Shown: one piece after another, positions 15,840 through 35,204 of the stretch
Position numbering within the stretch: position 1 is the first letter of the stretch
How the letters are laid out: each line of letters begins with the position of its first letter
Source of the DNA: an uncultured Candidatus Rokubacteria bacterium
GTDB taxonomy: Bacteria > Methylomirabilota > Methylomirabilia > Rokubacteriales > CSP1-6
Assembly: GCA_963758635.1 (NCBI GenBank)
Contig: CAVWWD010000002.1
Span: 64,001-128,000 of the forward strand
Reading direction: 5' to 3'
Length of the DNA: 64,000 nucleotides
The notes under the pieces: generated by a model
What the model was told of the DNA's origin: nothing
Seen by the model: the letters and a program-made list of their open reading frames with translations, nothing else
The model's database searches: none
Made by a program: the position numbers and the translations under genes

Positions 15840-16307
15840 TCAGGAGGCGGCAGGCACACCGTCCCGAGGAGAAGGCCCTTTGGAACCGACCATGCGCGCC
15901 CTCGCGAGCCGCCCCGGGCGGACGATCACTTGCCACGAGTTGCCCAGGAAGACCATGGAGAGCCCGAGCAGGTTGAGCGCGATTGGCGTGATCTTCCCGG
16001 GCAACGGCGCATACACCCAGTACGCGAGGGTGCTCGTGGCCAGGAGTGGCACGAGGAGCAGAGCACGGGGCGGCCAGTGACGCTGCCATAGCCGAATGAG
16101 CGCTTCGCCCAGGTCGCCTTCGAGCCTCTTGTGGAGAACGAGCCATGACACCCACGCGGCCACGACCAGCGCGGGGAGCCATTGCTCCACCCACAGGGCG
16201 GACGTGACGAGCAGAAGCGTGCCGGCTCGCCGCCGGTGGCGGTCGTCGCTCACGGTCCCGGAGCGGATCATCGCGCCTGCGTGCTCGTCTCCATGCATCG
16301 CCGTCAC
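15840..16307 (-). CDS. Hypothetical membrane protein
   Basis: Several hydrophobic segments; 4-nt stop/start overlap (GTGA) with the upstream mlaC-like gene. Confidence 0.55.
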   Translation of the reverse strand: MTAMHGDEHAGAMIRSGTVSDDRHRRRAGTLLLVTSALWVEQWLPALVVAAWVSWLVLHKRLEGDLGEALIRLWQRHWPPRALLLVPLLATSTLAYWVYAPLPGKITPIALNLLGLSMVFLGNSWQVIVRPGRLARARMVGSKGPSPRDGVPAAS

Positions 16308-16976
16308 GGGCCCTGATTGGCCCCGGGTATCAGGCGCGCTTCGCGAGTCCGCAGCCTGTCGAGCAGGGTGGCGAAGGAGGAGGTCTTGATGATCGAGCCG
16401 AACTGGCTCCGATAGCTGGAGACGAGGCTCACGTCTCCCGCGACGACGTCATAGACCGCCCATTGCCCCACGCTCTGCTGCAGGCGGTACTCGATCGGGA
16501 TCTCCGTGCGGCGGTCGGTGAGGATGCGAGAGTACACGCGGGCCGACGAGCCGTCGACGGACTCGCGCTGGAAGGTGATCGTCGCGAGACGGTAGCTCCC
16601 GATGACGGTCAGGTACGACCGCTCGAGGAGATTCGTGAAGAGGCGGACGAACTCCTCCTGCTCCTGCGGGGAACGGTCGCTCCAGTGCTGCGCCAGCGTC
16701 CGCCGGGCCATCTCGTTGAAGTCGAACAGCGTCACCGCGACCTCGCGCACCGCGGCTCGTCGCTCGTCCGTGTCCGGCTGCGACTTCACCAACGCCATCA
16801 CGCGTGAGACGGACGATTCGACCAGGCGTGAGCGGCCCTATCGACCCGGGGGAGGTGCTCTTCCCAGCGTCCTGGGCAGGGGCCGGCTGTGGTCCGAGCA
16901 CGAGGGCGGCCATCGCGATGGCGAGCAGGAGCAACCGGCGGACGTGACGCGCGAAGAACTCGGTGAGCTGGCTCAT
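16304..16976 (-). CDS. mlaC: MlaC/Ttg2D-like periplasmic binding protein, frameshifted (~16830)
   Basis: Signal peptide in one frame; FDFNEMARRTLAQHW...FTNLLERSY...W.VYDVV...VSLVSSYRSQF in another. Confidence 0.85.
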
Positions 16977-17057
16977 GACGTGGCACTCCTTCCGTGACGG
17001 GCGCGTGCGGCGTCTCCCACGGGCTCAGACTAGTCCTCGCGATTCCACCTGCCCACC

Positions 17058-17071
17058 AGGACCTTGGTCCA
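17058..17071 (-). promoter_or_regulatory. Palindromic box AGGACCTTGGTCCA; -10 TAGTCT at 17027-17032 (minus), for mlaC
   Basis: Matches the recurring consensus; 25 nt from box to -10. Confidence 0.75.
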
Positions 17072-17136
17072 ATGCGCCGCCCCGACGGCGCCCGATGCCG
17101 GTCGCCGGAGGACGCTATCGCTTCCGCGGAAGACCG

Positions 17137-18313
17137 CTATTGGACCGGTCTCGCAAGGCGGGCGCGCGCAGCGGCGGACAGATCACTGTTGGGCTCGAGC
17201 ACAACGAGTCTGTCTCTCTTCAACTCTGCGACCGATCCCTCGTCTTCGTCGCCGTCGACGGGAGACTTGTCGGGGGCCTGCAAACGTCGCGCAACGATCC
17301 GGACGGCCGCCATCACGGGGGCGGCGAGGAACATTCCGGCCACACCCGCGATCTCACCGCCCGCCAGCACACCCACGATCACCAGAGCGGGATGGATGTC
17401 GATGCCGCGGGCCATGACGAGCGGGTTGACCGCGTAGTCCTGGATCAACCGCCATACGAGGATGAACAGCGCGAGCAGCCAGGGGTGCTCGTAGCCGGCG
17501 AACAGGCACACCCCGATGGCGACGACGCCGGCCGTCAGCGGGCCGACGACCGGAACGACCTCGAGGGCGCCGCCGATCCCGGCGAGAACGAGAGCGTACG
17601 GCGCGCCGGCGGCCAGGAATACCGCCGACCAGGCGACGAACGTGATCAGGGCCAGGAGCAGGAGCGCCCGGACGTACTGGCCGAGCAGAAGATGCAGGTC
17701 CTCGGCGATGCCCCACCACACGCGCCGGCGGCGCCCTTCATGACCGAGTCGCCATATCGCCGTCGAGGTGAATCGCTCGAACGTCCTTCAGGATGAAGAA
17801 CGCGAGGACGGGGATGAGCACGATGACCCACGCCCCGGCGAGCCACTTCAGGACCGACGCCGCGGCCTGTTGAGCGTAGAGGACGATCTCTCCCATGTGG
17901 CTCTGCACCAGCCGGTCGATCTCGCGGATCTGCTGCGACTCCCATCCCCCACGCGCAAGGAAACCGACGACGATCTCGCCGTTCTGGATCCGCTTGGTCA
18001 TCTCCGGAAGCTTCTGCGCCAGCCCCTGGACCTCGGCGGCCAGGCGTGGCCCGACGGCGATCGCGGCCCCGCCGAGAATCGCGAGGACCACCAGGTACAC
18101 CACCACGATCGTCAGCGCCCGGCTGCGGATCCCCCGCCGTTGCACGAAGTGGACAAGGGGGAACAACAGGTACGCGAAGAACAGGGACAGCGCGATGAGG
18201 AAGAGCACCTGCCGCAGGGCATAGGCCAACCCGAGGGCGGCGAGCAACACCAGGATGGTCCATGTGACTCTCACCGCCCGCAGGTCGAGGCCGAACCGGC
18301 TACTCCGGAGCAT
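17137..18313 (-). CDS. AI-2E family transporter (PerM-like), frameshifted or partly deleted near 17720-17780
   Basis: FAYLLFPLV, VLAFFILKD, LEVVPVVGP, IQDYAVNPLVM and IHPALVIVGVLAGGEIAG motifs. Confidence 0.88.
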
Positions 18314-18351
18314 CGATCGGAACTCTAGCTCGCCCGGGGCGGCCGACCTAT

Positions 18352-18365
18352 TGGACGAAGGTCTA
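18352..18365 (-). promoter_or_regulatory. Palindromic box TGGACGAAGGTCTA; -10 TAGAGT at 18322-18327 (minus), for the AI-2E gene
   Basis: 24 nt from box to -10; ATG 8 nt further on (leaderless-type). Confidence 0.75.
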
Positions 18366-18386
18366 AATCCGCCTCACGTCACCAGT

Positions 18387-18417
18387 CCCGCGTAGCATGA
18401 CTCGCCCGCGTAGCATG
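18387..18417 (+). repeat. 13-bp direct repeat CCCGCGTAGCATG x2
   Basis: Copies at 18387-18399 and 18405-18417. Confidence 0.8.
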
Positions 18418-18467
18418 TGACCCGCCCTCCTCAGGCAGAGCCGCCTTGACGGACGGGGACGCGGCAC

Positions 18468-18481
18468 TAGACGTAGGTCCA
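18468..18481 (+). promoter_or_regulatory. Palindromic box TAGACGTAGGTCCA; -10 TAGAGT at 18506-18511
   Basis: 24 nt from box to -10; upstream of a 23-aa ORF. Confidence 0.75.
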
Positions 18482-18532
18482 ATGTGTGGGCGGCGTCATG
18501 ACGGCTAGAGTGACGGGAGAGGAGGACAACTC

Positions 18533-18604
18533 ATGAACATCTTCTACGTCATCGGGGTCGTCGTCGTGGTGCTCGCTGTCTTTGGATACCTCAGGCTCGG
18601 CTAG
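18533..18604 (+). CDS. 23-aa single-TM small protein MNIFYVIGVVVVVLAVFGYLRLG
   Basis: Strong RBS GAGGAGG and a dedicated promoter; too short for the ORF track. Confidence 0.75.
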   Translation: MNIFYVIGVVVVVLAVFGYLRLG

Positions 18605-18705
18605 AGTTCGCCACGTCTGGGCTTGCCCCAGACGCAAAATCGCTCTGGAGCCCCGCGTTGGATCGGGGCCATGCAGTGGTCCGGTGAACAAGGAAAGGAG
18701 AGCCT

Positions 18706-18894
18706 GTGAGCTTGATAGGGATCGTGCTGACGCTGGTGGTGGTCGGGGTGCTGCTCTGGCTGCTGAACAACTACGTGCCCATGGATGGGAAGATCAAGTC
18801 GATCGTCAACGTCGTGGTTGTCATCGTCGTTGTGATCTGGGTGTTGCAGGCCGTCGGCCTTCTCGGGTCCTTGCAGAACATCCGTATTCGGTGA
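18706..18894 (+). CDS. Small two-TM membrane protein (Thivi_2564-like)
   Basis: LVVVGVLLWLLNNYVPMDGKIKSIVNVVVVIVVVIWVL; RBS AAGGAG. Confidence 0.85.
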   Translation: MSLIGIVLTLVVVGVLLWLLNNYVPMDGKIKSIVNVVVVIVVVIWVLQAVGLLGSLQNIRIR

Positions 18895-19027
18895 CGCGCA
18901 GGTCCGGTGCGATGTGGACGCAAGGGGAAGGGGCGCGCCCGGCGCCGCGCCCCTGCTCAACGGGGGTGAGCGACAGAACCAGCCGAGACGCGTCAATCCG
19001 GCGAGGCGGGGAGCTCGAGGACGCCTC

Positions 19028-20890
19028 TCAGGCGTTCGCGGTGCCCTGCGCGGCCAGGAGCGCGGTGAGCGTGTCGCGATCCACGACTTCCTGTTCGATC
19101 AGCACCTTCGCCAGCGTCTCGAGCACGTTCCGCTTCGCGGTCAGCGTTTCCCGGACGCGATCGTGGCCCGCCTGCAGCAGGGCCCGGACCTCCCGGTCGA
19201 TCATCCGGGCCGTGTCCTCGCTGTACACCCGCTCGGTGGGGTTCGGACCGTTGAGGAACAGCGCCTGGCGAGGACGCTCGAACGTTCCCAGGCCCAGCGC
19301 ATCGCTCATCCCGTATTGCGTCACCATGTGCCGCACGAGATCGCTCGCCCGCTGCAGATCGTCGTGCGCCCCTGTCGAGACATCCCCGAAGATGATCTCC
19401 TCGGCGACCCGCCCGCCGAGGAGCACGTCCAGCCGGTCCAGGAGCTCCGCCCGCGTCATCAGGTACCGATCCTCCGTCGGCTGCTGCTGCGTGTAGCCAA
19501 GCGCCGCCACCCCGCGCGGAATGATCGATATCTTGGCCACCTTGTCGGCCCGTTCCCGCGACTCGGCGACCAGAGCGTGGCCGGCCTCGTGGTGAGCGAC
19601 GATCTCCTTCTCCTTGGGGCTGATGATCCGCGACTTGCGCTCGAGACCCCCGACGATCCGGTCGATGGCCTGGTCGAAGTCCGCGGCGTCCACCGCCTCC
19701 TTGTCCTCGCGCGCGGCGTGGAGCGCCGCCTCGTTGACGAGGTTCGCGAGGTCGGCGCCCACGAATCCCGGTGTGCGCGCCGCGATGAGGGACAGGTCGA
19801 GTGCCGGGGCCAGCGTGACCGTTCGCGTGTGGACCTGGAGGATCTTGGTCCGGCCCTTGAGGTCCGGTCGATCGATGACCACCTGACGGTCGAATCGACC
19901 GGGGCGCAGGAGGGCCTGATCGAGGATCTCCGGGCGATTGGTGGCGGCGAGGATGATGACGCCGGCTCGCGAGTCGAACCCATCGAGCTCCGCGAGGAGC
20001 TGGTTGAGGGTCTGCTCGTGTTCGTCGTGTCCCCCGAAGCCGGGGGTGATCCCCCGAGCCTTTCCGACGGCATCCAGCTCGTCGATGAACACGATGCTCG
20101 GCGCCTTCGTCTGCGCCTGGGCGAACAGGTCGCGCACGCGGGCGGCTCCCACACCGACGAACATCTCCACGAAGTCGGATCCGTTCAGGCTGAAGAAGGG
20201 GACTCCCGCTTCCCCGGCCACGGCCTTGGCCAGCAGGGTCTTCCCGGTTCCCGGCGCCCCGACCAGCAGCACTCCCTTCGGGATCTTTCCGCCGAGTCGC
20301 CGGTAGCGCTCGGGCCTCTTCAAGAAGTCCACGATCTCCATCAGCTCACCGCGGGCCTCGTCGATGCCCGCGATGTCGTCGAACGACACCCCCGTCTTCT
20401 GCTCGACGTAGACCTTGGCCCGGCTCTTGCCGAGGCTCATGAGCCCCTTCTGCGGATTCATTCGGCTCACGAGGAAGAACCAGAGGCCGAAGAAGATCGC
20501 TGTCGGCACGATCCATGACAGAAGGGTGAAGAGCCACGTGCTCTCGGTATGCCCCGTGAAGCGGACGCGTGCGACTTCGAGCTCGGGCACGAGGGCGGCG
20601 TCCTCGACGCGCGTCGTCACGAACGCGTACGTACCCTTCCCGAGGCGCTTGATCTTCTCGATCTTCTCCTTCGAAAGGATGGCGTCGAGGCCCGCGGGCG
20701 ACAGCGCCCCTTCGATGGTGTCCCGGTACAGGGCCACCTCGGAGACTTTTCCCGCTTTCAGGAGGGCCTTGAACTCGCTGTACGAGATGTTGTCCGGATG
20801 GGGCGCCAGGAACAGCGCCTGGCCGCCCACGAAGACGGCGATCGCGATCAGTGCGTACCACACGGAGAACGTCCGCTGCTTCAGTTGCAT
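19028..20890 (-). CDS. ftsH: ATP-dependent zinc metalloprotease FtsH
   Basis: [32 protein letters not shown] and HEAGH motifs. Confidence 0.97.
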
Positions 20891-20974
20891 GGTCCCTCTT
20901 GCAGGCCCGCGGCGGGACGGCGGATCGACGCTCGGCGGTGGTGAGCGTCCCGTACGCGAGGTCGAGGTCGGGAG

Positions 20975-21415
20975 CTACGGCACCTTCGACGAGAAGGTGA
21001 CGCGTCGATTGGAGGCCCGGCACGCCGCCGTGCTCTCCGTGCACGCGGGGCGCTCCCCGCTGCGTGACTGGATCTCGAGCCGATGCGCCTTCACGCCCCG
21101 CGACACGAGATAGGCCTCGGCCGCGCGCGCCCGGTCTCGGCCCACCTCCGCGCTGAGAGCGCGAGCTCCCGGCTCGTCGGTATGCCCCTCGATGAGGAGC
21201 CCCCGGTGTCCGGCCCGGCTGAGCCACACGACGTGGGCGTCGAGGACCGTTCTGTCACGCGGACGGATGTCCGTCGTCCCCGCATCGAAGTAGATCGGCT
21301 TCAGGGTCGTGGCGTTCACCGGCGCACCCTGCACTTGTGGATAGCTTGCGACAATGGCGACCAGGGCCATGACGACGGGAGCCACGAGACATGCGGTTCT
21401 CCAGCCTCTCGACAA
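20975..21415 (-). CDS. OmpA/Pal-like peptidoglycan-binding protein
   Basis: IYFD, IEGHTD, RARAAEAYLVSRGV and NRRVTF motifs; signal peptide. Confidence 0.88.
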   Translation of the reverse strand: MSRGWRTACLVAPVVMALVAIVASYPQVQGAPVNATTLKPIYFDAGTTDIRPRDRTVLDAHVVWLSRAGHRGLLIEGHTDEPGARALSAEVGRDRARAAEAYLVSRGVKAHRLEIQSRSGERPACTESTAACRASNRRVTFSSKVP

Positions 21416-21502
21416 GCCAAGTCTCCTAGTCCCGCCTGATCTCCGCGGCTCGCCGAGCGGTCCGCACCTGTGAATCTAGTCTCTCGCCCGCTGCGTGCCT
21501 AT

Positions 21503-21516
21503 TGGACCTTGGTCGC
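21503..21516 (-). promoter_or_regulatory. Palindromic box TGGACCTTGGTCGC; -10 TAGATT at 21473-21478 (minus), for ompA-ftsH
   Basis: 24 nt from box to -10. Confidence 0.75.
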
Positions 21517-21531
21517 CCTGCCGGTAGCCAC

Positions 21532-23602
21532 TCATCGCTCCTCCTCACGCCGCGCCGCGGCCCCGCTGGTGTCATCGTAGAGGCGGTCCTGGGCGCGAAG
21601 GGCGGGCTCGCCATCGGCCCGGATGCGGACGGATCGACCGTCCGGGAGGATGCGCCGGGCCTTCACCGTGTCGGCGAGCTGGATCTCGAGGATCTCCTGG
21701 ACGCGAGACTGCAGGCCGGGATCCAGCACCGGGAAGGCGATCTCCACCCGGCGGTCCAGGTTCCTGGGCATCCAATCCGCGGAGGCGAGGAGGCACTCCG
21801 GCTGCCCGGCGTTGGCGAAGTGGACGATGCGCGCGTGCTCGAGGTACCGATCGACGATCGAAATGACCCGAACGTTGGCAGAGAGGCCCGGCACCCCGGG
21901 ACGAAGGCAGCAGATGCCGCGCACGATCAAATCAATCGTCACGCCCGCGCCGCTGGCGGCGTACAGCTCCTCGATCAGCCGGCGGTCCACGAGACCGTTC
22001 ATCTTCGCGATGATCCGCGCCGGCCTCCCGGCCCTGGCATGGCCGGCCTCCCGGCGGATGCGCTGGACGAGCCCGTCGCGCAGATCGGCGGGCGCGACGA
22101 GCAGGTGATGGAAGCGGGGCGGCCGTGCGCAGCCGCTCAGGCGGTCGAACAGCTCGGTGACGTCCTCGCCGAACGAGACGCGGCTCGTGAAGAGGCCCAG
22201 GTCGCCGTAGAACGTCCCCCGTCCGCGCGTTGTAGTTGCCCGTGGCGAGGTGGCAGTAGAGCCGGACCCCGTCGGCTTCCTGCCGGACGACGAGGCAAGC
22301 CTTGCAGTGGGTCTTGTATCCCGGGAGGCCGTGGACCACGTGCGCACCCACCTTCTCGAGCTCGCGGGCCCAGCGGATGTTCGCCTCCTCGTCGAATCGG
22401 GCCTGGAGCTCGACGAGCACGGCCACCTTCTTCCCGTTCTCGGCCGCCGTGCGCAGGGCCTGGGCGATAGGCGAGGCCGGGCTCACCCGGTAGAGCGTCA
22501 TCTTGATCGCGAGGACGGCGGGATCGAGGGCGGCCTCGCGCACGAAGCGAGTGACGCTGGCGAAGGCCTGGTAGGGGTGATGCACGAGGACGTCCCTGGC
22601 GCGGATCGCGCTCCAGATGTCCGGCGCGCGCTCGAACGCCGCGACGGAGTGCGGCGGGCGCGGCCCCTCCTTGAGCCGGGGCAGGTCGACGGCGGCATAG
22701 AGCTGGAGCAGATCGGTGAAGGCCGTGAAGCCCGTGCTCGCGTAGAGGTCCTCGGGCGCCAGCTCCAGCTCGTCGACCAGCGTGGCCAGGACGTCGGCGG
22801 GCAGCTCCGCGTCGTACTCGAGGCGCACCGCGGCGCCGAGGCGGCGGTCGCGCAGGCTCGCCTCGATGCTCGCGATCAGATCCTCGGCGCGGCCCCGCGT
22901 CGCCAGGGTCGCGTCGCGAGTCACGCGGATCGCGTGGCTCCATACGACATCGCGGCCTCCGTGGATGCCCGACAGGTACGGCCGGATCGCGTCCTCGAGC
23001 AGCATGAAGGCGTGCGGGCGAACGGAATCGGGCACGGCCACGAAGCGCGGCAAGGCTGGGCTCGGCACGTGGATCACAGAAAGCGAGCTTGCGGCCATCG
23101 CCGAGGCGGCGGCCGGGCGGATCGAGGCGACGATACACAGCGATCGGTTGCCGAGGTAGGGGAAGGGACGGCCGGGGTCGACGGCCAGGGGCGTCAGCGT
23201 GCCGGGCAGCAGGCGACGGACGTGCTGTTCGACGAAGCGCCGCTGCTCGGCGGTAATGTCCTGGTGCCGGAGGAGGACGATGCCTTCCGCGGCGAGGAGC
23301 GGCAGGATCTCGAGGAAGCAGCGGCGGTGCTCGTCGACGAGCTCGTGGACCCGGCCCGCCACCGCCGCCAAGGTCTCCGCCGGCGTGAGCCCGTCGGGCC
23401 CCGCCTGCGCCTCGCCCGCGTCGATGCGGCGCTTCAGCGCGGCCACGCGGACCATGAAGAACTCGTCCAGGTTCGCGCTGAAAATGGCCAGGAACTTCAC
23501 GCGCTCGAGGAGGGGCACGCTCGGATCCTGTGCCTCCTCGAGCACCCGGCGATTGAACTCCAGCCAGGACAGCTCGCGATTGACGAACGCCGCCTCGGTC
23601 AC
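21532..23602 (-). CDS. ppk1: Polyphosphate kinase 1, frameshifted in a G homopolymer (~22218)
   Basis: NRELSWLEFN, NLDEFFMVRV, HHPY, KMTLYR, ARFDEEAN, KTHCK, DRYLEH and SADWMPRNLDRRVE motifs. Confidence 0.95.
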
Positions 23603-23603
23603 G

Positions 23604-24567
23604 TCAGTCCCGCGTATTGAACGTCTCACGCAGGAGGATGCCGTCACGGACTCCCCGCGTGCAGACGACGAGCGTCAGGTATCCGCCGAAGACCATGGTC
23701 TCCTCGATCACCATTGCTCCAGCCAGGATGATGTCGGCGCGCTCGGACTTGAGGCCGGGGACCTTCTCACGGTCGTGGTGCGTGAGGCCTTCCAGGCGCT
23801 CGCGCACCGCCGTGACGTCGGACTGTCGGAGCGAGAGCCCGTGGCGGTGCTTGCGGGCGCCGCGGCGGGCGCGGAGATGGACGCGGGCGAGGCTGCGCAC
23901 GATGCCGCCGAGGCCGACCAGGACCTCGCCGGGCGCAGCGACGGGCAGAGCGCCTCGGAGCTGCTCGCGGATGGCGCCCCGGAGGGCGTGGACCTCGCGT
24001 GGGGTGGGCGGATCGTGCCGGAGAAGACCTCGCGTGCTGCGGATGGCTCCAAGCGGGAGGCTCGCGCTGGACACGATCCTGCGCGCCCGGACCCGGCTGA
24101 GCTGCAGGCTGGCGCCGCCGAGGTCCGCGACGGCCCCGTCCTTGAAGGGGAGGCTCTCGAGCGCCGCGCAGACACCCAGCCGCGCCTCGTCCCGGGCGCT
24201 CAGCACGTGCACCGTGATGCCCTCGTTGCAACGGAGGGGATGGAGCAACTGTTCCTGGTTGCGCGCGTCCCGGACGGCCGAACGTCGCCACCGCCACGAC
24301 GCGCGGGCCACCGCCACTCGGCGAGACCCGCGCCATGAAGTGGTGGACGGCCCGAAGGGTCTGGTCGATCGCCGCGCGGGGCAACGTGCCGGGCGGGCCG
24401 CCACCCAGCCGGGTCGGCACCCGTTCCTCCGCCAGCACACGGTAGCCGGTGCCCGGGGTGATCCGGGCGAGCAGAAAGCGAACGGCGGTCGATCCCAGAT
24501 CGACCACGGCCACCAGCTCCGCCCGCTCAGCCACGCGAGGGCGCACAGGTTCCGAGATCCACGACAC
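23604..24567 (-). CDS. ppx: Exopolyphosphatase Ppx/GppA, frameshifted (~24280)
   Basis: VVDLGSTAVR, VLSARDEARL, DLGGASLQ, ERADIILAG and GVRDG motifs; start approximate. Confidence 0.9.
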
Positions 24568-24693
24568 TCCTCCTTCAGGGGCGGCCGCCAGTCCCGATAT
24601 CCGCCCCACACCCGGAAGGCCCCAAGCGCGGACCAGCATGAGAAGGAGATCGCGATCGCCTGCACTCTAGCCAGGCCGATTCACCCCGCCCAT

Positions 24694-24707
24694 TGGACCT
24701 TCGTCCA
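24694..24707. promoter_or_regulatory. Palindromic box TGGACCTTCGTCCA serving two divergent -10 boxes
   Basis: TAGAGT (minus, 24664-24669) lies 24 nt to the left; TAGACT (plus, 24733-24738) lies 25 nt to the right. Confidence 0.8.
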
Positions 24708-24800
24708 GTGTTCTGCCCGTGGAGTCGATCCTTAGACTGTGGGGGTGGGGAAGACGTCGCGGCGGCGGTTCGATACCTGGGTTGAAATCGGGAGAGAGAC

Positions 24801-25148
24801 GTGGCAGAGATAAGCGGCCTCATGACGGAGCTCAATGACCTTCGCGAGCAGAAGCATCTGACGTGGAGCGAGCAGGAGGCCGGATGGATCGGGACGCCGG
24901 CCGCGATCTTGGACGCGCTCGTCCGTGATGGATACGAGGAGTGCCAGCGCGAGACCACGACGAGTCATCGCGATGGCCGCCCGGCCGGCGGCCTCTGGCG
25001 GGGAGTCAACCCGCGCACGGGATCCGTGGCGTCGGCGATCTGGGTGACGCGCCCGGCGGCGGCAGCCTTGGTGTTCATCCAGATCGATGGGGAACTGGTG
25101 GCACGACCGGGGAGGGGGCCGCATGAGGAGGAAGGCGGGCAGGGCTGA
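24801..25148 (+). CDS. Hypothetical protein
   Basis: 115-aa ORF with RBS GGGAGAG, downstream of the box promoter. Confidence 0.65.
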   Translation: MAEISGLMTELNDLREQKHLTWSEQEAGWIGTPAAILDALVRDGYEECQRETTTSHRDGRPAGGLWRGVNPRTGSVASAIWVTRPAAAALVFIQIDGELVARPGRGPHEEEGGQG

Positions 25149-25189
25149 CGCTTGCCGGGCCGCAGGCTCGAATCTATGAGGAGGCCACA

Positions 25190-25252
25190 ATGAAGAACGT
25201 TTCTACGATGACTCTGCCGTGCCCCCAGGTCCCGTGGGGCCGCCGCCGATGA
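25190..25252 (+). CDS. Putative 20-aa leader peptide MKNVSTMTLPCPQVPWGRRR
   Basis: RBS GAGGAGG; its stop overlaps the desaturase start (ATGA). Confidence 0.5.
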   Translation: MKNVSTMTLPCPQVPWGRRR

Positions 25253-26001
25253 TCGAGCTCGGGATCATCTTCCTTGTGACCATGGCGCTCACGCAGACCG
25301 CGGTCCTCGCCACGACGGTCTACCTGCATCGCGCCCTCGCGCATCGCGCCCTCGTCGTCCACCCGGTCACGGACGTCTTCTTCCGGACCGCCCTCTGGCT
25401 CACGACGGGCTTGAGCCGCCAGCAGTGGGTGGCTGTCCATCGCAAGCATCACGCCTTCACCGACCGGGACGGCGATCCTCACAGCCCGCGGCTGCAAGGC
25501 ATCTGGCACGTCCAGATCCTGAACGCCTACTACTACATGCGGGAGGCACGGAACCCCGAGACGCTGCGGAAGTTCGCGGCGGACCTCCCCGAAGACCGGC
25601 TGGATCGCCTGCTCTTCTCCCGGGGCTGGTGCGGCCTCGGGATCGGGATCACGCTGCTTTGCCTCGTCCTCGGTTTCTGGCCCGGACTCATCGCCAGCCT
25701 CGTGCATGCCATCCAGTACGTCTTCATCGTGGCCCCGCTCATCAACGGCCTGGGACATTGGCGAGGAGCACAGAACTTCGCGAGCAACACCGCGTACAAT
25801 TCACGCGTGCTCGCCTGGCTGACGGGGGGCGAAAGCCTCCACAACAACCACCATGCGCATCCGCGGGCGCCCAAGTTCAGCATGAGACGCTTCGAGTTCG
25901 ATCCGGCGTGGCTCGTGATCCGCGCCCTGGCGCGAATCCGTGCCCTCGCGATCCTCGGGACGACGGTCAGGCTGCAGACCGGCGCGGGGCCGGCGCGGTG
26001 A
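25249..26001 (+). CDS. Membrane fatty-acid (delta-9/acyl-CoA type) desaturase
   Basis: His boxes HRALAH, HRKHH and HNNHH; DPHSP motif. Confidence 0.93.
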   Translation: MIELGIIFLVTMALTQTAVLATTVYLHRALAHRALVVHPVTDVFFRTALWLTTGLSRQQWVAVHRKHHAFTDRDGDPHSPRLQGIWHVQILNAYYYMREARNPETLRKFAADLPEDRLDRLLFSRGWCGLGIGITLLCLVLGFWPGLIASLVHAIQYVFIVAPLINGLGHWRGAQNFASNTAYNSRVLAWLTGGESLHNNHHAHPRAPKFSMRRFEFDPAWLVIRALARIRALAILGTTVRLQTGAGPAR

Positions 26002-26084
26002 CCGTGGACGGCGGGGAGCGCGCCACGCGCGACGACCGCGCACCCTCGAATGGATCGACCCTGAATGTCTCGAAGGGGAGGGAC

Positions 26085-26453
26085 ATGCAGGCACTGAAAC
26101 GGATCGGCCCGCCCGTGCCGACGGGTGTGCGCGGCGACGAATACGACCTGAGCGTTCCCCTGAACGGCACGCCTTCCGTGGACTGGCGGCGCGCGTTCCA
26201 CGCCTCCGAGAAATCGACCGAGCTGTGCCATCCGACTCGCGTCACGGTGAAGGACCGCGCGCTGACCTTCACGAGCGAGGAAGACCACGTGCGACTGTGG
26301 ATCCAGCTCATCGACGAGTGGATTGCTGGCGCGAATCAAGCGTGCGCCGAGCGGCCCACCTCCACGTCGAGACGCGAGGTCGAGCAGAGCGACGACGAGC
26401 GCGAGCGCCAGCGGCGGATTCGGGAGGCGGTGGAACGCTTCAAGAACCTGTGA
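26085..26453 (+). CDS. Hypothetical protein
   Basis: MQALKRIGPP... after RBS GGGGAGG; charged helical C-terminus. Confidence 0.65.
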   Translation: MQALKRIGPPVPTGVRGDEYDLSVPLNGTPSVDWRRAFHASEKSTELCHPTRVTVKDRALTFTSEEDHVRLWIQLIDEWIAGANQACAERPTSTSRREVEQSDDERERQRRIREAVERFKNL

Positions 26454-26473
26454 CGCTCGCTCGAGACGGCCCC

Positions 26474-26487
26474 TGGACCAAGGTCCA
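26474..26487 (+). promoter_or_regulatory. Palindromic box TGGACCAAGGTCCA; -10 TAGCCT at 26512-26517
   Basis: Perfect consensus; 24 nt from box to -10. Confidence 0.8.
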
Positions 26488-26549
26488 GTAGGGCCACCCT
26501 GCCCGCTGCTGTAGCCTGACCTCACCGAGGACGCACGAAGGAGGAGACC

Positions 26550-26810
26550 ATGCACGTTCTACTCTTCATCCTGATCGGGTTGGTGGCAGGCGCGCTGGCC
26601 GGGCGGGTGGTGAGCGGCCATGGCTACGGCATGGTGGGGAACTTCGTCGTCGGAGTTCTCGGCGCCGTCCTGGGCGGATGGATGTTCACCACCTTCGCCG
26701 GCGTGACGAGCGGAGGAGTGTCCTTCAGCCTCTTCACGGCGCTCCTCGGCGCGGTCGCGCTGCTCTGGGTCGTCAGGCTGGTCGCCCCCGCCCGCGGCTT
26801 GAACCCCTGA
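26550..26810 (+). CDS. GlsB/YeaQ/YmgE (transglycosylase-associated) stress membrane protein
   Basis: IGLVAGALAG...GNFVVGVLGAVLGGW...ALLGAVALLW. Confidence 0.92.
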   Translation: MHVLLFILIGLVAGALAGRVVSGHGYGMVGNFVVGVLGAVLGGWMFTTFAGVTSGGVSFSLFTALLGAVALLWVVRLVAPARGLNP

Positions 26811-26841
26811 AACCACACTCGATGTCTCGAGGAGGCCACCA

Positions 26842-27084
26842 ATGCTGCGTTTCATCTTGGGGGCGATCATGGGCGGTGTCGCGGTCTGGGCATGGCGAGA
26901 CGAGCTCCGTGAGTACATCGCCGACGGCACCCGCGGCCTGAGGACGACGGCGGCCGACCAGCTCCAGGCGGTCCAGACAGCCGCGGAGGGCGCACTCAAC
27001 ACCGCGAGGGATGGGATCAGCTCCGGCCTGCAAAGTGGGCAGGACGCGATCCGCCCGGAGGACGCATCGCGACCGGCACGATAG
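26842..27084 (+). CDS. Small membrane-anchored helical protein (YtxH/LEA-like)
   Basis: FILGAIMGGVAVW anchor plus an Ala-rich helix; RBS GAGGAGG. Confidence 0.7.
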   Translation: MLRFILGAIMGGVAVWAWRDELREYIADGTRGLRTTAADQLQAVQTAAEGALNTARDGISSGLQSGQDAIRPEDASRPAR

Positions 27085-27124
27085 TCCGTTCCCGCTCCGA
27101 ACACCCGCACGAGGAGGAACCGTC

Positions 27125-27358
27125 GTGAATAGAGCATCCGCGCTTCCCGTGGCCGTCCACGTGCCACACCTGTTCCCTCGAGCCCTGGTCCGGACGGCAA
27201 GGTCGGGGATCTATCTCGTCCGTGGGGTTCCACGCGACCTGCAGCGCACGGCGCGCGCCCGGGCGGCGCGGGAGACGACCACCTTGAGCGCCGTGCTCCG
27301 GCAGGCCTTGCGCGAGTACGCCGCCGGTACCTGGACGCCCGAACCCGCCGACACATGA
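27125..27358 (+). CDS. Small ribbon-helix-helix-like DNA-binding protein
   Basis: YLVRGVPRDLQRTARARAARETTTLSAVLRQALREYA; RBS GAGGAGG. Confidence 0.65.
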   Translation: MNRASALPVAVHVPHLFPRALVRTARSGIYLVRGVPRDLQRTARARAARETTTLSAVLRQALREYAAGTWTPEPADT

Positions 27359-27389
27359 TGTGACGGCCGTTGCGCGGCCGTTGCGGCAC

Positions 27390-27403
27390 TGGACCTTGGT
27401 CCA
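27390..27403 (+). promoter_or_regulatory. Palindromic box TGGACCTTGGTCCA
   Basis: Perfect consensus; the downstream -10 is imperfect (GGCTAGAGACT at 27423-27433). Confidence 0.75.
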
Positions 27404-27477
27404 CTACCGTCTTTGCGGCGCCGGCTAGAGACTGACGTAGGGATCCGCCAAGAGAGCGGCCCTGGAGGAGGTGTCTC

Positions 27478-27849
27478 ATGCGAGTGCCAGTGTGGATCAA
27501 ACCGATGGTATGGGGCGGCGTCTTGGGCGCGATCGGGATCATGATTGTCGGATTCTCCTGGCTGGGGTGGACGCTCGACCACACGACCAAGAGACTCGTG
27601 ACGGAAGGCAGCGAGTCGGCCGTGGTCACTGCGCTGACTCCGTTCTGCGTCGCGAACTACATGAAGCAGCCCGACGCCGCTCAGAAGCTCGCCGTGCTCC
27701 GCGCCGACTCCTCGTCGTACACACAGCGCGAGATCATCGAAAAGGCCGGATTCGCAACCATGCCCGGAAAGACCGAACCAAGCTCAGGACTGGCGGCGGC
27801 CTGTGCGACCGCGCTTCAGACCGTCAGCCTTGCCGTCCCGAGCAAGTAG
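27478..27849 (+). CDS. Conserved-looking hypothetical membrane protein
   Basis: GAIGIMIVGFSWLGW TM segment and two Cys (PFCV, AACA); RBS GGAGGAGG. Confidence 0.8.
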   Translation: MRVPVWIKPMVWGGVLGAIGIMIVGFSWLGWTLDHTTKRLVTEGSESAVVTALTPFCVANYMKQPDAAQKLAVLRADSSSYTQREIIEKAGFATMPGKTEPSSGLAAACATALQTVSLAVPSK

Positions 27850-28151
27850 TCGACGATAAGGCCACGCGGCCGCGCGCTCGGGCGGAGACGCCCGGGCCGC
27901 GCCGCCTCAGGCCTACTCGTCCGTCCGCCTTGCGGGCGTGAAACGCCAGGCGGAGCTCCGCAGCGGATCAGCCGCGCGGGTCAAGAGATCGATCCCGTCG
28001 GGCCACGCACATACTCGCGCTCGATCTCCGCGATGATCTCGCGGCGCTCAGAACGGGTCCACCATTCGCTCGTCCTACGACGGGACGCAGAACTCGGCCG
28101 TCATAGCGGAGGTCGGCTCGCCGCCGCTCCGGCGCGTGCTGACCCGCGCAC

Positions 28152-28165
28152 TGGACCAAGGTCCA
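28152..28165 (+). promoter_or_regulatory. Palindromic box TGGACCAAGGTCCA; -10 TAGGCT at 28191-28196
   Basis: Perfect consensus; 25 nt from box to -10. Confidence 0.8.
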
Positions 28166-28300
28166 CTACGTTGCCCACGCGGGTGGCTGCTAGGCTGATG
28201 GCGTTCGCGCCACACCCACGGTTCGCGCACGAGACGATCCGATCGCGCCGGAGCCACACAGTCGGTGAACATATCGGACGATGCGCTCGGGAGGCCCTCC

Positions 28301-28489
28301 ATGGCGAAGTTCATCCAGATCTGCGCATCACAGAACGATCTGTTCGCTCTCGACCAGGACGGGGGCGTCCATCAGTACGACTTCAACACGAAGACGTGGG
28401 CGCAGCTCGCCCTGGACCGCCGCGACGAGGCGCCTTCGCGAAGTGACCGTCAGGCGAGCGGCGGCGCGCCGTGGGGGAGGCCGCCGTGA
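28301..28489 (+). CDS. Small hypothetical protein
   Basis: MAKFIQICASQNDLFALDQDGGVHQYDFNTKTW; RBS GGGAGG. Confidence 0.65.
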   Translation: MAKFIQICASQNDLFALDQDGGVHQYDFNTKTWAQLALDRRDEAPSRSDRQASGGAPWGRPP

Positions 28490-28625
28490 TCTCCGGCGAT
28501 TGCCCCAGTCAGATGGCTATCCCGTCGCAGTCTTCGCGTCCGCCCGTGAGTTCCTCGCCTCCGGGCCGCTCGGTCGCCTCGGCTGCCTCGTCCTGGACAT
28601 CCGCCTCGGGGAGATGACGGGCGGT
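28488..28625 (+). pseudogene. Fragment of a FixJ/TodT-like receiver domain
   Basis: LRRL..SDGYPVAVFASAREFL...GCLVLDIRLGEMTG; no start and no C-terminus. Confidence 0.65.
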
Positions 28626-28646
28626 TACCGCATTCTACGAGGGTCA

Positions 28647-28850
28647 TCAGACCTGCACGAGCGCCTTCCCGTTGGCCCCGAGCCACTCCACCACCTTGGC
28701 CCACGCAACAGGCTCCCGCTCCGTCCATGCCCTCACCGCCTGGGCGGGAACGACCACGTATGCGCGCTCAGGGTGCGCGGCCGCTTCCACCAGGCGGGCG
28801 AGATCGGTTCGGGATTGTCGAAGCTCCACGAGCAAGTCGCTGGTCGTCAT
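28647..28850 (-). CDS. Small hypothetical protein
   Basis: MTTSDLLVELRQSR...; RBS AGGAG. Confidence 0.65.
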   Translation of the reverse strand: MTTSDLLVELRQSRTDLARLVEAAAHPERAYVVVPAQAVRAWTEREPVAWAKVVEWLGANGKALVQV

Positions 28851-28971
28851 GAGTTCTCCTGGGAATGCAGCAATGGATTCAGCACCGGTCGGCAGCACGG
28901 GGTCGCGACCCTCACCCCGGCTTGGAGTGCGCCCTCTCGGGAGCCTATCTGGCCGCTCGTCGGCGCGCCAT

Positions 28972-28985
28972 TGGACCTTGGTCAG
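28972..28985 (-). promoter_or_regulatory. Palindromic box TGGACCTTGGTCAG; -10 TAGGCT at 28942-28947 (minus)
   Basis: 24 nt from box to -10. Confidence 0.75.
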
Positions 28986-29129
28986 GGAGCGCTCCGCTCC
29001 CTGATACTCACGCAGTCGTGATCGGCGAGGCCGCCCGGCTCATCAGCCGTGCTCAGGTTTCAGGGAGGCTCCGGGTTGTTGGCGACAACTCCAGATAGCG
29101 CGCTGGCGGTGCCGGACCCGCGACCGAGC

Positions 29130-30236
29130 TCAAGGCACGAACGCAAGGAACAAGAACGCCGCGAAGAGCACGAGGTGCACCGCCCCCTGCATCACGTAGG
29201 TGCGGCCGGTGCCGAGAGTGAACGCGCTCACCAGAAACGTCAGCATGAGCATCGCCATGTCCGCCGGCCCGACGCCCAGGACCAAGGGCAACTGGAAGGC
29301 GATCGATGCCAGTACCACGACGGGAACGGTGAGACCAATGCAGGCGAGCGCGGAGCCGATCGCAAGATTGATGCTGGTCTGAAGTCGATCGGCCCGGGCG
29401 GCCCGCACCGCGGCCCACGTTTCCGGCAGCAGGATCAGCCCGGCGATCACGATCCCGACCACAGCCCTGGGCGCATCGGCGGCCTCGACCACGCCCTCGA
29501 TCGTGGGCGAAAGCATCTTGGCAAGACCCACGACCGCCACGAGTGAGAGGAGGAGCAACCCGGAGCTCACCCATGCCTCCAGGGCCGTCGGCGGCTCGGC
29601 ATGCACGTCCAGGTTGTCCGCGCCGGCCGCCGGGATGAAATAGTCCCGATGGCGTACGGTCTGAACGAAGATGAAGATCGCCCAGAGCACGGCGGCCGTC
29701 ACGGCCACGAATCCGAGTTGCGAGCCGCTGTACGTGCCGGCGGGCGTGCTTGTCGTGAACACCGGCAAGACGAGCGTGAGGGTAGACATCACGATCAGCG
29801 CCGCAAGCCCTGCGCCAGCTCCCTCGATGCGGAAAGTCTGCTCTCGGTGCGCAAGACCGCCGAGGAGCACGCATATGCCTACGACACCGTTGCAGATGAT
29901 CATCACGGCGGCGTAGATCGCGTCGCGCGGCAGAGCGGCCATGTCCTCGCCGCCTGCAATCATCATCGACAGGATGAGCGCGGTCTCGATCGCGGTCACG
30001 GCCAAGGCAAGCACGAGCGTGCCGAGGGGCTCGCCCACGCGATGCGCGATGACTTCGGCGTGGTGGACCGCTGCGATGATCGCCCCGACCAGAGCGGCGC
30101 CGCACAGCACGGCGAGCAAGGTTCCCACGCCCGCGACGACCGCAGCCACGAGCAACGCGAGCGCCAACACGGGGACAAGCCAGGTCCAGAGAGGGATGGT
30201 TCGTCCTTGGCCCGGTGGTGTGGGCGTCACCACCAT
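29130..30236 (-). CDS. chaA: Ca2+/H+ antiporter (ChaA/Y4hA, CaCA family)
   Basis: VHHAEVIAHRVGEPLGTLVLAL, LLPETWAA and NLAIGSALACIGLT motifs. Confidence 0.92.
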   Translation of the reverse strand: MVVTPTPPGQGRTIPLWTWLVPVLALALLVAAVVAGVGTLLAVLCGAALVGAIIAAVHHAEVIAHRVGEPLGTLVLALAVTAIETALILSMMIAGGEDMAALPRDAIYAAVMIICNGVVGICVLLGGLAHREQTFRIEGAGAGLAALIVMSTLTLVLPVFTTSTPAGTYSGSQLGFVAVTAAVLWAIFIFVQTVRHRDYFIPAAGADNLDVHAEPPTALEAWVSSGLLLLSLVAVVGLAKMLSPTIEGVVEAADAPRAVVGIVIAGLILLPETWAAVRAARADRLQTSINLAIGSALACIGLTVPVVVLASIAFQLPLVLGVGPADMAMLMLTFLVSAFTLGTGRTYVMQGAVHLVLFAAFLFLAFVP

Positions 30237-30264
30237 CCCCCCACGCCGGGAATCGCGCAAGGGT

Positions 30265-32178: not shown

Positions 32179-32208
32179 GGTGACGAGATCGTCCCATCCG
32201 CCCGCTCG

Positions 32209-32301
32209 TCACCGCTTCCAGCCGGAGGGCACCTGCCGGTGATTGGGGTTGGTGGGGTTGCCCGCATTCCAGAGGTGGATCTGCGCGTCCACGATCAGCA
32301 T
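32209..32301 (-). pseudogene. Collapsed amidohydrolase gene (N-terminus fused to C-terminus)
   Basis: RBS AGGAAGGAG then MLIVDAQIHLWNAGNPTNPNHRQVPSGWKR*. Confidence 0.7.
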
Positions 32302-32340
32302 GTCGTCTCCTTCCTGAAGAGCTTCCCCGGGCGCGCGACC

Positions 32341-32670
32341 TCAGCCCCCGGCTTTGTCCATGCGCCGGAGGAACACCTCGACCTCTTTCTTGGTCTGGAG
32401 GTCCCCCGTTTCCGCCGCCACCTCGAGGCCCTTCTCGTATGCCGCCCTTGCCTCGGCCGTGCGCCCCGCCCGCTCGAGGGCGCGGCCGAGCCCCCGGTAC
32501 GCTGCCGAGTAGTCCGGCTTCAGGCGGACGGCTTCCGCGTACTCCGCGGCCGCCGCCTCTGCCTGACCCGCATCCAGATAGGCGGCGGCAAGGCCGAAGC
32601 GGACCACGGGATCGTCCGGCATCAGCTCGGCCACTTCCTTGAACTCTGCGATCCGATCCTCGCCAGCCAT
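32341..32670 (-). CDS. Small TPR protein
   Basis: PDDPVVRFGLA...PDYSAAYRGLGRAL repeats. Confidence 0.9.
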   Translation of the reverse strand: MAGEDRIAEFKEVAELMPDDPVVRFGLAAAYLDAGQAEAAAAEYAEAVRLKPDYSAAYRGLGRALERAGRTAEARAAYEKGLEVAAETGDLQTKKEVEVFLRRMDKAGG

Positions 32671-32687
32671 GCGGACGCCTCCCTGCA

Positions 32688-32894
32688 TCACATCGAGTGG
32701 ATGCGCTCTTCGGGCACCTCGACCCGCTTGATCCCCTTGAAGCTGAACAGCAGCTCCACGAGGTACGTCGGTGGCGTCGTCGAGACCTGCTGAACGATGG
32801 TCCCGATGGCCTTCTGCACGTTCTGGCTGAAGAACACGCCCTTGATCGTCAGGTTGGATAGGTCGACCGTCACTCGCTGGTTGGGTTGGTACAT
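32688..32894 (-). CDS. Small hypothetical beta-rich protein
   Basis: MYQPNQRVTVDLS...VEVPEERI; RBS GAGG. Confidence 0.7.
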   Translation of the reverse strand: MYQPNQRVTVDLSNLTIKGVFFSQNVQKAIGTIVQQVSTTPPTYLVELLFSFKGIKRVEVPEERIHSM

Positions 32895-33336
32895 GCCTCG
32901 CTCCCGGAAGAGCCCCTCGCGCCGACCAACCTCATCATAGTCGAGCACCGGCTTGATCCGCTCGTACAGCTGACCGGCGCCCGCCCGAAGATGGCGGCTG
33001 TCCGGGGGAGGCTCGGTCGGGTGCTCGAGCTACGCTGAAGGCCGAAGCACGTCCGCGCGCTCCGGCATGTGGAACTCCCACGCAAACAACGACGATCAGC
33101 GGAAGCGAGGCGTGCTCACCCAACCCGGGCCGTGATTTCCGTCGCCTCGCAAGCGTGGTTGGCGCGCGAGAAAGCTGCTACTGTGCCTTGTGGCATCGGG
33201 CCCTTCTGCGTCGCCACTGTCAGAGTCTGGCAGCTCATGTCGCCATGGCGGGGATTCGCGCAGCGGCGATCGCCGTCGGAGGGCACTACAGTTGGTGTCC
33301 CGTTCTCCGCGGGCGCAGCGGCGCCAGTCGCCGTAG

Positions 33337-34521
<1,185 letters not shown>

Positions 34522-34610
34522 TCTGGGGAGAGCGACCAGTGGTAGAGTTCGGGCAAGTCGGAGGCACCTACCAACCGTCAACCTGTTCGGTGTCGAGAGG
34601 AGGATTTCCC

Positions 34611-34772: not shown

Positions 34773-34789
34773 AGGCGGCGGGGACGCGT

Positions 34790-35187: not shown

Positions 35188-35204
35188 TTGGCACCTTCGC
35201 TGCA
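35188..35204 (+). promoter_or_regulatory. Putative sigma-54 promoter TTGGCACCTTCGCTGCA
   Basis: GG-N10-GC with TGGCAC; ATG follows 13 nt downstream. Confidence 0.55.

What the first reader, a model, noticed from the sequence alone, without database searches (positions are those of the whole stretch)
17027..28985. Unannotated activator regulon: TGGACCWWGGTCCA box fixed 24-25 nt upstream of a TAGNNT -10
Seen: nine intergenic copies of a 14-bp palindrome, starting at 17058, 18352, 18468, 21503, 24694, 26474, 27390, 28152 and 28972. Eight have a TAGNNT hexamer 24-25 nt away (nine promoters, as one box is bidirectional), always pointing at the adjacent gene. The ninth copy (27390) has an imperfect -10. 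I noticed no copies outside this ~12 kb. Known: a palindrome centred near -43/-44 is typical of class II activation, and GGAC-N4-GTCC resembles the mycobacterial DosR (NarL/FixJ family) box. Inference: one regulator co-activates mlaC, the AI-2E gene, ompA-ftsH, ppx-ppk1, possibly the desaturase, glsB/yeaQ and many small proteins, forming a general-stress or dormancy regulon in an uncultured lineage.
Basis: partly seen in the sequence, partly recalled or inferred. Interest (0 to 1): 0.85.

Follow-up and report, generated by a model that had tools for sequence, protein, structure and literature searches.

The report
Cross-phylum FixJ-type activator box regulon
Nine copies of a short DNA palindrome sit at a fixed distance in front of promoter-like sequences in this uncultured bacterium and recur beside one family of two-component regulator genes in several phyla, so they are likely docking sites through which that regulator would switch on a set of probably stress-related genes by an ordinary mechanism.

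Summary
All nine boxes and their -10 hexamers lie where stated. A matrix trained only on other genomes finds 17 strong sites in this genome: 17 intergenic, 13 with TANNNT 24-25 nt away (background 0.6%). The fuller motif is ATTGGACCAAGGTCCAATAG. It recurs with the same spacing in Rokubacteria, Burkholderiaceae and other phyla, usually next to a kinase / StyR-EL222-like FixJ-subfamily regulator / single-receiver locus. The 12-bp core fits the measured EL222 consensus RGNCYWWRGNCY, and the regulators share EL222's recognition helix. DosR membership fails (half-site, no tandem boxes, distant HTH). In this assembly the cognate regulator gene on contig C11 is deleted after about 14 codons; two sister paralogues on C6 remain. 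Targets look like a general-stress and envelope set; signal, binding and start sites are untested. The mechanism is ordinary class II activation; six literature searches found no description of this box. The scan has reported the same kind of box before on other genomes.

The parts
17058..17071 (-). box 1 (AGGACCTTGGTCCA); -10 TAGTCT at 17027-17032, 25 nt away; faces mlaC
   Evidence: 19.5 bits
16304..16976 (-). MlaC/HpnM-like gene, split by a frameshift in this assembly
   Evidence: PF05494; contigs of two runs lack one base at 16827
18352..18365 (-). box 2; -10 TAGAGT at 18322-18327, 24 nt away; faces the AI-2E gene
   Evidence: 24.5 bits
17137..18313 (-). AI-2E family transporter, in two frames
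   Evidence: PF01594 on both pieces
18468..18481 (+). box 3; -10 TAGAGT at 18506-18511, 24 nt away
   Evidence: 21.2 bits
18533..18894 (+). 23-aa hydrophobic ORF (18533-18604) and Thivi_2564-family membrane protein (18706-18894)
   Evidence: NF041949; no family for the 23-aa ORF
21503..21516 (-). box 4; -10 TAGATT at 21473-21478, 24 nt away; faces ompA-like gene and ftsH
   Evidence: 20.2 bits
19028..21415 (-). OmpA-family gene (20975-21415) and FtsH (19028-20890)
   Evidence: PF00691; PF01434, PF00004
24694..24707 (.). box 5, bidirectional: TAGAGT at 24664-24669 (minus, 24 nt) and TAGACT at 24733-24738 (plus, 25 nt)
   Evidence: 25.0 bits
21532..24570 (-). ppx-like gene (about 23604-24570) and ppk1 (about 21532-23602), both frameshifted here
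   Evidence: PF02541, PF13089, PF02503, PF17941, PF13090; one-base difference at 24281 in one run
24801..26453 (+). 115-aa ORF, fatty acid desaturase (25249-26001) and 122-aa ORF; inferred to be read from box 5
   Evidence: PF00487; homologues of all three follow boxes in other genomes
26474..26487 (+). box 6 (perfect); -10 TAGCCT at 26512-26517, 24 nt away
   Evidence: 23.8 bits
26550..27084 (+). GlsB/YeaQ/YmgE transglycosylase-associated protein (26550-26810) and 80-aa ORF (26842-27084)
   Evidence: PF04226
27390..27403 (+). box 7 (perfect); imperfect -10 GAGACT at 27428-27433; faces a 123-aa ORF (27478-27849)
   Evidence: 26.9 bits; similar ORFs follow boxes in L036, L042, L056, L095
28152..28165 (+). 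box 8 (perfect); -10 TAGGCT at 28191-28196, 25 nt away; faces a 62-aa ORF (28301-28489)
   Evidence: 28.3 bits
28972..28985 (-). box 9 (weakest); -10 TAGGCT at 28942-28947, 24 nt away; faces a 67-aa ORF (28647-28850)
   Evidence: 14.8 bits; a similar ORF follows a box in L090

Best explanation
The nine palindromes are real, evenly placed promoter boxes that are likely bound by a dimer of a phosphorylated StyR/EL222-like FixJ-subfamily response regulator, which would recruit housekeeping RNA polymerase from a position overlapping the -35 region and switch on a probably stress-related gene set. Shown: the motif, its fixed 24-25 nt distance to a TANNNT hexamer, its intergenic position, and its linkage to a GAF- or PAS-kinase / regulator / box / single-domain receiver locus across phyla. 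Inferred: binding, activation, a centre at -43.5 or -44.5 (assuming the hexamer starts at -12), feedback through the box-driven receiver in the manner of FixT, and a general-stress or envelope role. In this assembly the regulator that belongs to the kinase-receiver locus on contig C11 is deleted, so the most likely readers here are the two intact sister paralogues on C6 (77678-78322, 89971-90609), which carry nearly the same recognition helix.
For: Spacing without selection: 36 of 55 secondary boxes with up to 1 mismatch have TANNNT at 24-25, no other distance more than 3 times; 29 of 48 new boxes in a second set. Own genome, matrix from 183 foreign sites: 17 of 17 strong hits intergenic, 13 of 17 with the hexamer, background 0.6%. 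Regulator linkage from the motif side: 34 of 153 loci hold a LuxR-type HTH and 32 of the 34 are this subfamily (some loci overlap). From the protein side: 18 of 27 regulator loci found by protein search and not overlapping the training set have a box of at least 14 bits within about 1.5 kb, against 1.1% of random windows; the 8 other GerE-type genes of this genome have at most 3.1 bits nearby, the two candidates 16.6 and 10.1. Co-occurrence in 60 relatives: 3 or more matches in 11 of 24 genomes with the regulator, 0 of 36 without (kin are not independent). A Paraburkholderia phenoliruptrix plasmid stretch picked by the protein alone has 4 boxes over 21 bits, all with TANNNT at 24. Biochemical analogue: EL222 consensus RGNCYWWRGNCY (PMC10521638, passages) fits 4 cores exactly and 5 with one mismatch; its helix aligns almost residue for residue; it activates when its site overlaps -35 (PMC5001607, passages). 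StyR activates from a site at about -40 (PMC2442086, passages). 37 of 40 regulator rows have a kinase within 1.5 kb.
Against: No binding or start-site data; RNA runs were contigs only and two contigs run through box 6. The cognate regulator is missing from this assembly, and its two paralogues fall in a sister clade whose own boxes are weaker variants; relatives in which only that clade was found mostly have 0-2 canonical matches. 9 of 27 regulator loci have no box of 14 bits and 8 of 24 regulator-bearing relatives have no pattern match. The EL222 consensus is degenerate, so a fit is not strong alone. 2 of 10 column-shuffled matrices also gave 8 and 14 genome hits, so the count of 17 is not evidence by itself. 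Kinase sensor domains vary (GAF in 12, PAS in 17, neither in 3 of 31), so one common signal is not shown. Many targets have no family.
Confidence: 0.75

Rival explanations
1. Same regulator family, but in this genome the regulon is orphaned: its dedicated regulator was lost recently and the boxes are relics that the C6 paralogues read poorly or not at all.
For: Only about 14 codons of the regulator remain between the C11 kinase and the receiver's -10; a second copy at C6:82648 ends after its receiver domain; genomes with 3 or more canonical matches carry a regulator outside the C6-type clade wherever I could place it.
Against: 17 strong boxes are intact; the paralogues' helix differs little; one relative at 91% completeness in which only the sister clade was found still has boxes (G055); near-identical sequence of the target genes is in soil RNA libraries, though DNA may contribute.
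Confidence: 0.08
2. The cognate regulator is intact in the living population, and the C11 gap is an assembly artefact or a single-strain deletion; it, not the C6 paralogues, reads the boxes.
For: The assembly has many one-base indels that other contigs do not share and is 87% complete; in four related loci the gene is whole.
Against: The junction is clean and both flanks are colinear with relatives; no same-species sequence could be found to check it.
Confidence: 0.08
3. A DosR/DevR-type or other NarL-proper regulator binds the box and runs a dormancy regulon.
For: The core shares GGAC-N4-GTCC with the DevR half-site G4G5G6A7C8 (PMC3177182, passages); some targets (Hsp20, CBS proteins) recall that regulon (recalled).
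Against: 2-3 mismatches to GGGAC-N4-GTCCC in 9 of 9 boxes; no second box within 80 bp, whereas DevR needs tandem boxes; NarL-type genes of this genome have no box nearby; the linked HTH is far from DosR.
Confidence: 0.03
4. The box is a repressor operator that blocks the -35 region of otherwise constitutive promoters.
For: The promoter-side flank overlaps the -35 position; EL222 and StyR can repress from other positions.
Against: A two-position spacing window is what activator-polymerase contact needs, not repression; the -35 region is a poor match to consensus; several promoters have weak hexamers (GAGACT, CAGGCT).
Confidence: 0.04
5. A CRP/FNR-family protein binds this 5-4-5 palindrome.
For: The 5-4-5 layout resembles the FNR box (recalled).
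Against: No HTH_Crp_2 match over cut-off in this genome; the cNMP proteins inspected lack that architecture; spacing is 24-25, not the 22 expected for a site at -41.5 (recalled).
Confidence: 0.02

Closest known systems
EL222 of Erythrobacter litoralis (LOV-HTH; PDB 8a5r, 3p7n) and its RGNCYWWRGNCY site
   Same: Core sequence code (0-1 mismatch in 9 of 9); near-identical recognition helix; activates from a site overlapping -35.
   Different: Input is a receiver domain with a partner kinase, not a LOV domain; conserved flanks ATT/AATAG and a natural regulon with fixed spacing.
StyS/StyR, TodS/TodT, TmoS/TmoT of Pseudomonas (box ATAAAC-N4-GTTTAT)
   Same: Closest full-length structure (1yio, E 5.7e-54); same 6-4-6 palindrome layout; K-V-H recognition residues kept; activation from about -40.
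   Different: Box differs at 5-7 of 12 positions; helix has EKT where StyR has EVT; targets are stress and envelope genes, not aromatic catabolism.
FixL/FixJ/FixT of rhizobia and Caulobacter
   Same: FixJ-type fold; a regulator-induced single-domain receiver next to the system, as for FixT (10.1101/729053, abstract).
   Different: Below the NCBIfam FixJ cut-off (223.7 and 218.6 against 255) and a linked kinase far below the FixL cut-off (229.5 against 850); helix differs; no oxygen sensing shown.
DosR/DevR regulon of mycobacteria
   Same: GGAC-N4-GTCC core, NarL-superfamily HTH.
   Different: T instead of G at the outer position, single boxes, distant HTH.
Sigma-S and sigma-B general stress regulons
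   Same: Shared target families: YmgE-type transglycosylase-associated protein (sigma-S controlled, PMC5437024 table row), lmo0937 family (lowered by a sigma-B inhibitor but described as PrfA-regulated, PMC3225968 passages), OsmY, Hsp20, SOD, GroES.
   Different: Control appears to come from a two-component activator acting with a housekeeping-type -10, not from an alternative sigma factor (inferred).

Membership tests
StyR/TodT/EL222-like FixJ subfamily (class II activators) | Receiver plus LuxR/GerE HTH in the linked regulator | tested here: met
   PF00072 and PF00196 on both C6 proteins; StyR best structure
StyR/TodT/EL222-like FixJ subfamily (class II activators) | Recognition helix with K-x-H-R (StyR Lys175, Val176, His179) | tested here: met
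StyR/TodT/EL222-like FixJ subfamily (class II activators) | Palindromic site with 4-bp centre near -40 to -45 | tested here: met
   position relative to +1 assumes the hexamer starts at -12
StyR/TodT/EL222-like FixJ subfamily (class II activators) | Phosphorylation-dependent binding and activation | not testable with these tools
   needs EMSA, DAP-seq or a reporter
StyR/TodT proper | ATAAAC-N4-GTTTAT box | tested here: not met
   5-7 mismatches in 9 of 9
EL222 proper | RGNCYWWRGNCY core | tested here: met
   0 mismatches in 4, 1 in 5 of 9
EL222 proper | LOV sensor fused to the HTH | tested here: not met
   linked proteins are receiver-HTH
FixJ proper | NCBIfam FixJ equivalog cut-off and a FixL-type kinase | tested here: not met
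   heme binding of the PAS kinases was not tested
DosR/DevR regulon | GGGAC half-sites | tested here: not met
   2-3 mismatches
DosR/DevR regulon | At least two tandem boxes per promoter | tested here: not met
   best second score within 80 bp is -5.5 bits; very degenerate secondary sites could be missed
CRP/FNR regulon | A CRP-type HTH regulator in the genome | tested here: not met
   genome 87% complete
General stress regulon | Joint induction by several unrelated stresses or stationary phase | not testable with these tools
   gene content only

The most novel reading that the evidence does not exclude
A mobile, cross-phylum general-stress programme that is run by a two-component activator instead of an alternative sigma factor, travels as island-like gene clusters between Rokubacteria, Burkholderiaceae, Desulfobacterota and others, and in this genome has outlived its own regulator gene and been taken over by paralogues.
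Probability: 0.25. Interest if true: 0.7.

Novelty: new member of a known kind. Interest (0 to 1): 0.47.

Why it matters
It assigns a likely binding site, promoter geometry and target set to a large, unstudied subfamily of response regulators, and it names cultured, non-pathogenic test organisms (Caballeronia glathei DSM 50014, Paraburkholderia phenoliruptrix BR3459a). It also groups dozens of small proteins of unknown function into one testable regulon in an abundant uncultured soil lineage. The EKT versus EVT helix difference against the GGAC versus AAAC box gives a simple specificity rule to test. The mechanism itself would not surprise a specialist.

Tried and rejected
Start sites: 8 runs were laid, all contigs. 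Some contig ends fall 4-27 nt after predicted starts (21459 for 21466; 24654 for 24657; 24763 and 24771 for 24745; 26532 and 26541 for 26524), but contigs of X2 and X4 run through box 6, one of X7 spans box 7, contigs cannot show starts, and DNA may be present; I count this neither for nor against. Checking the C11 deletion in a same-species sequence: an exact 28-base search of metagenome contigs found nothing and a protein scan, which covered 14 of 64 parts, reached only 67% identity; an 88% identical receiver exists (P0002) but its DNA could not be fetched. CRP/FNR and DosR were rejected (see rivals). A repeat element or RNA hairpin was rejected because the flanks are unrelated and the box lies upstream of the predicted start. 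A second motif that I first suspected near the C6 genes (ATGRGAC-N4-GTCYCAT) turned out to be a weaker variant of the same box. A plasmid search with ftsH gave only 68-72% identical top matches and no sign that the region is a known plasmid. Literature searches for the motif or system (listings only) found no description; the library holds only open-licence PMC papers and bioRxiv, and no regulon database or supplement was read. No fold or complex job was run, since it would not test DNA binding.
Full report
Observation. The nine boxes are present at the stated coordinates. With up to two mismatches the window has 11 matches against a shuffle mean of 3.54 and a largest value of 10; the two extra matches score under 6 bits on a matrix. 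Eight boxes have TAGNNT 24 or 25 nt away, box 24694 on both sides, and 27390 has GAGACT at 24. If the hexamer starts at -12 the box centre is -43.5 or -44.5 (inference). The window is C2:64001-128000 of a 6.17-Mb, 12-contig, about 71% GC assembly, 87% complete. The closest named protein matches and named homologues are Rokubacteria/Methylomirabilota, so that lineage is likely.

Is it chance? I trained a 24-column matrix on 183 sites from other genomes only and scanned this genome. All 17 hits of at least 18 bits are intergenic (confident genes cover 74%), and 13 of 17 have TANNNT at 24-25 nt, against 0.6% of random intergenic positions. Eight of the 17 lie in the 12-kb stretch; nine lie on C3, C7, C9, C10 and C11, ahead of Hsp20 genes, another AI-2E gene, a DUF5670 protein and small ORFs. 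The count alone is weak: 2 of 10 column-shuffled matrices gave 8 and 14 hits. The spacing holds where it was not selected: 36 of 55 secondary boxes with at most one mismatch, and 13 of 42 with two; 29 of 48 boxes in a second set of loci. The oriented consensus of 99 sites not matched by the selecting pattern is ATTGGACCAAGGTCCAATAG, with TAG (58), TAC (29), TAA (7) or TAT (5) starting the hexamer. TAG-type hexamers are also sense-biased in ordinary gene gaps (154 against 73), as for a housekeeping -10.

Spread. Box plus spacing plus TAGNNT occurs in 9 of 60 relatives, the reversed control in none. They are mostly Rokubacteria/Methylomirabilota, with Paraburkholderia, Caballeronia, Syntrophobacteraceae, Deferrimicrobiaceae, Binatia, Verrucomicrobia and Acidobacteria. 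The spread is patchy: Caballeronia glathei has 11 box-plus-hexamer matches, while 2 of 300 other genomes of its phylum have one each, no more than the control's 3.

The regulator. Of 153 loci, 34 hold a LuxR-type HTH and 32 of those are one subfamily (some loci overlap). The usual order is kinase, regulator, box with -10, single-domain receiver; 37 of 40 regulator rows have a kinase within 1.5 kb. Three tests start from the protein, not the motif. First, 18 of 27 regulator loci from relatives, after dropping one that overlapped the training set, have a box of at least 14 bits nearby (10 at 18 bits or more), against 1.1% of random windows. Second, 14 of the 18 top-ranked metagenomic relatives of the single receiver have such a box within 260 bp upstream, against 3 of 49 lower-ranked ones (7 short and 6 duplicate loci of 80 dropped). 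Third, a Paraburkholderia phenoliruptrix plasmid stretch has four boxes over 21 bits, all with TANNNT at 24. Across 60 relatives, 11 of 24 genomes with the regulator have three or more matches and 0 of 36 without it; for one or more matches the figures are 16 of 24 and 3 of 36. Matches count both strands, kin are not independent, and the protein search scored at most 50 candidates per genome.

What it resembles. The closest solved proteins are StyR (E 5.7e-54) and FixJ (1.8e-47), but the proteins fall below the FixJ cut-off. On the HTH alone FixJ, StyR and EL222 score 8e-16 to 7e-14 and DosR 1.5e-4. StyR-like proteins read ATAAAC-N4-GTTTAT (PMC5874301, passages), 5-7 mismatches from these boxes, and StyR activates from about -40 (PMC2442086, passages). 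EL222, a lead taken from earlier scan notes and checked here, reads RGNCYWWRGNCY (PMC10521638, passages), which fits four cores exactly and five with one mismatch; its recognition helix is nearly the same and it activates when its site overlaps -35 (PMC5001607, passages). DevR needs GGGAC half-sites and tandem boxes (PMC3177182, passages); neither is met. No CRP-type HTH passes cut-off in the genome.

Who reads the boxes here. None of the 10 GerE-domain matches lies in the window. Two intact subfamily members lie on C6, each with weak variant boxes beside it (16.6 and 10.1 bits; the other eight have at most 3.1). In a tree of 53 rows both fall in an 18-row clade (99/96) with weaker boxes, apart from a 24-row group (87/80, not firmly supported) with the strongest boxes. 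On C11 a GAF kinase is followed by only about 14 codons of a regulator, a stop, a TAGGGT hexamer and the single receiver; four related loci have the whole regulator and box in that gap of about 660 bp. A further copy at C6:82648 ends after its receiver domain. So the cognate gene is absent from this assembly. I could not tell a true deletion from an artefact. The assembly carries frameshifts in mlaC, AI-2E, ppx and ppk1, and other contigs lack the extra base at 16827 and 24281, so assembly errors do occur.

The regulon. Window targets are MlaC, AI-2E, OmpA-FtsH, Ppx-Ppk1, a desaturase, a transglycosylase-associated protein, a Thivi_2564 protein and small ORFs without family. In other genomes the first ORFs after box promoters include homologues of these and SOD, GroES, OsmY, lmo0937-family proteins, SixA, a DksA-like protein, NhaA, a Ca/H exchanger, cytochrome bd and SYLF lipoproteins (89 of the 141 listed foreign ORFs were scanned, picked by eye to drop repeats and evident receivers; many had no family, and starts came from a simple script). 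YmgE is listed under sigma-S control (PMC5437024, table row); lmo0937 falls with a sigma-B inhibitor but is described as PrfA-regulated (PMC3225968, passages). This reads as a general-stress and envelope set, which is inference. The kinases carry GAF (12), PAS (17) or neither (3) of 31 scanned, so the signal is open; I put the stress reading at about even odds to slightly better. The box-driven receiver would fit a FixT-like feedback role (10.1101/729053, abstract), untested.

Verdict. A real operator and regulon of a StyR/EL222-like activator: it works like a known class II two-component switch, is not a member of the StyR, FixJ, EL222 or DosR systems proper, and was not found in six searches of the held library. 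Eight earlier scan notes on other genomes reach a similar reading; my regulator assignment was made before that look-up and those notes are not counted as support.

Noticed in passing
G000:C11 about 58080-58260 (L155:4950-5260, minus): Regulator gene reduced to about 14 codons between its kinase and the receiver's -10; about 660 bp with the box are missing relative to four related loci.
   Followed up: partly
G000:C6:82648-83070 (L154:8650-9070): Second subfamily regulator, behind a MASE1-GAF kinase, ends after its receiver domain with no HTH found.
   Followed up: partly
window 16304-24570: mlaC, AI-2E, ppx and ppk1 are each split by frameshifts; other contigs lack one base at 16827 and 24281, suggesting assembly indels.
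   Followed up: partly
window 17113-19031 and 27987-28179: Contigs from public runs join across these spans (X2; X6), so related strains appear to lack the AI-2E segment or box 8: the cluster gains and loses box-led modules.
   Followed up: no
window 17134-17152: A degenerate half box (CTATTGGACC then divergent) lies at the 3' end of the AI-2E gene, about 70 bp from box 1; it scores under 6 bits.
   Followed up: no
L272, L275, L280 upstream of the receiver gene: A different palindrome of the type CCTAC-CAAG-GTAGG sits at the same 24-25 nt distance from TANNNT, perhaps the box of another paralogue.
   Followed up: no
window 29130-30170 and 30265-32178: A Ca/H-exchanger-like gene (PF01699) and a stand-alone adenylation-carrier-like ORF (my reading of the translation) follow the cluster without a box.
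   Followed up: no
window 16001-36000: GC is 67-69% against 71-72% in the first 16 kb, a mild island-like dip.
   Followed up: no
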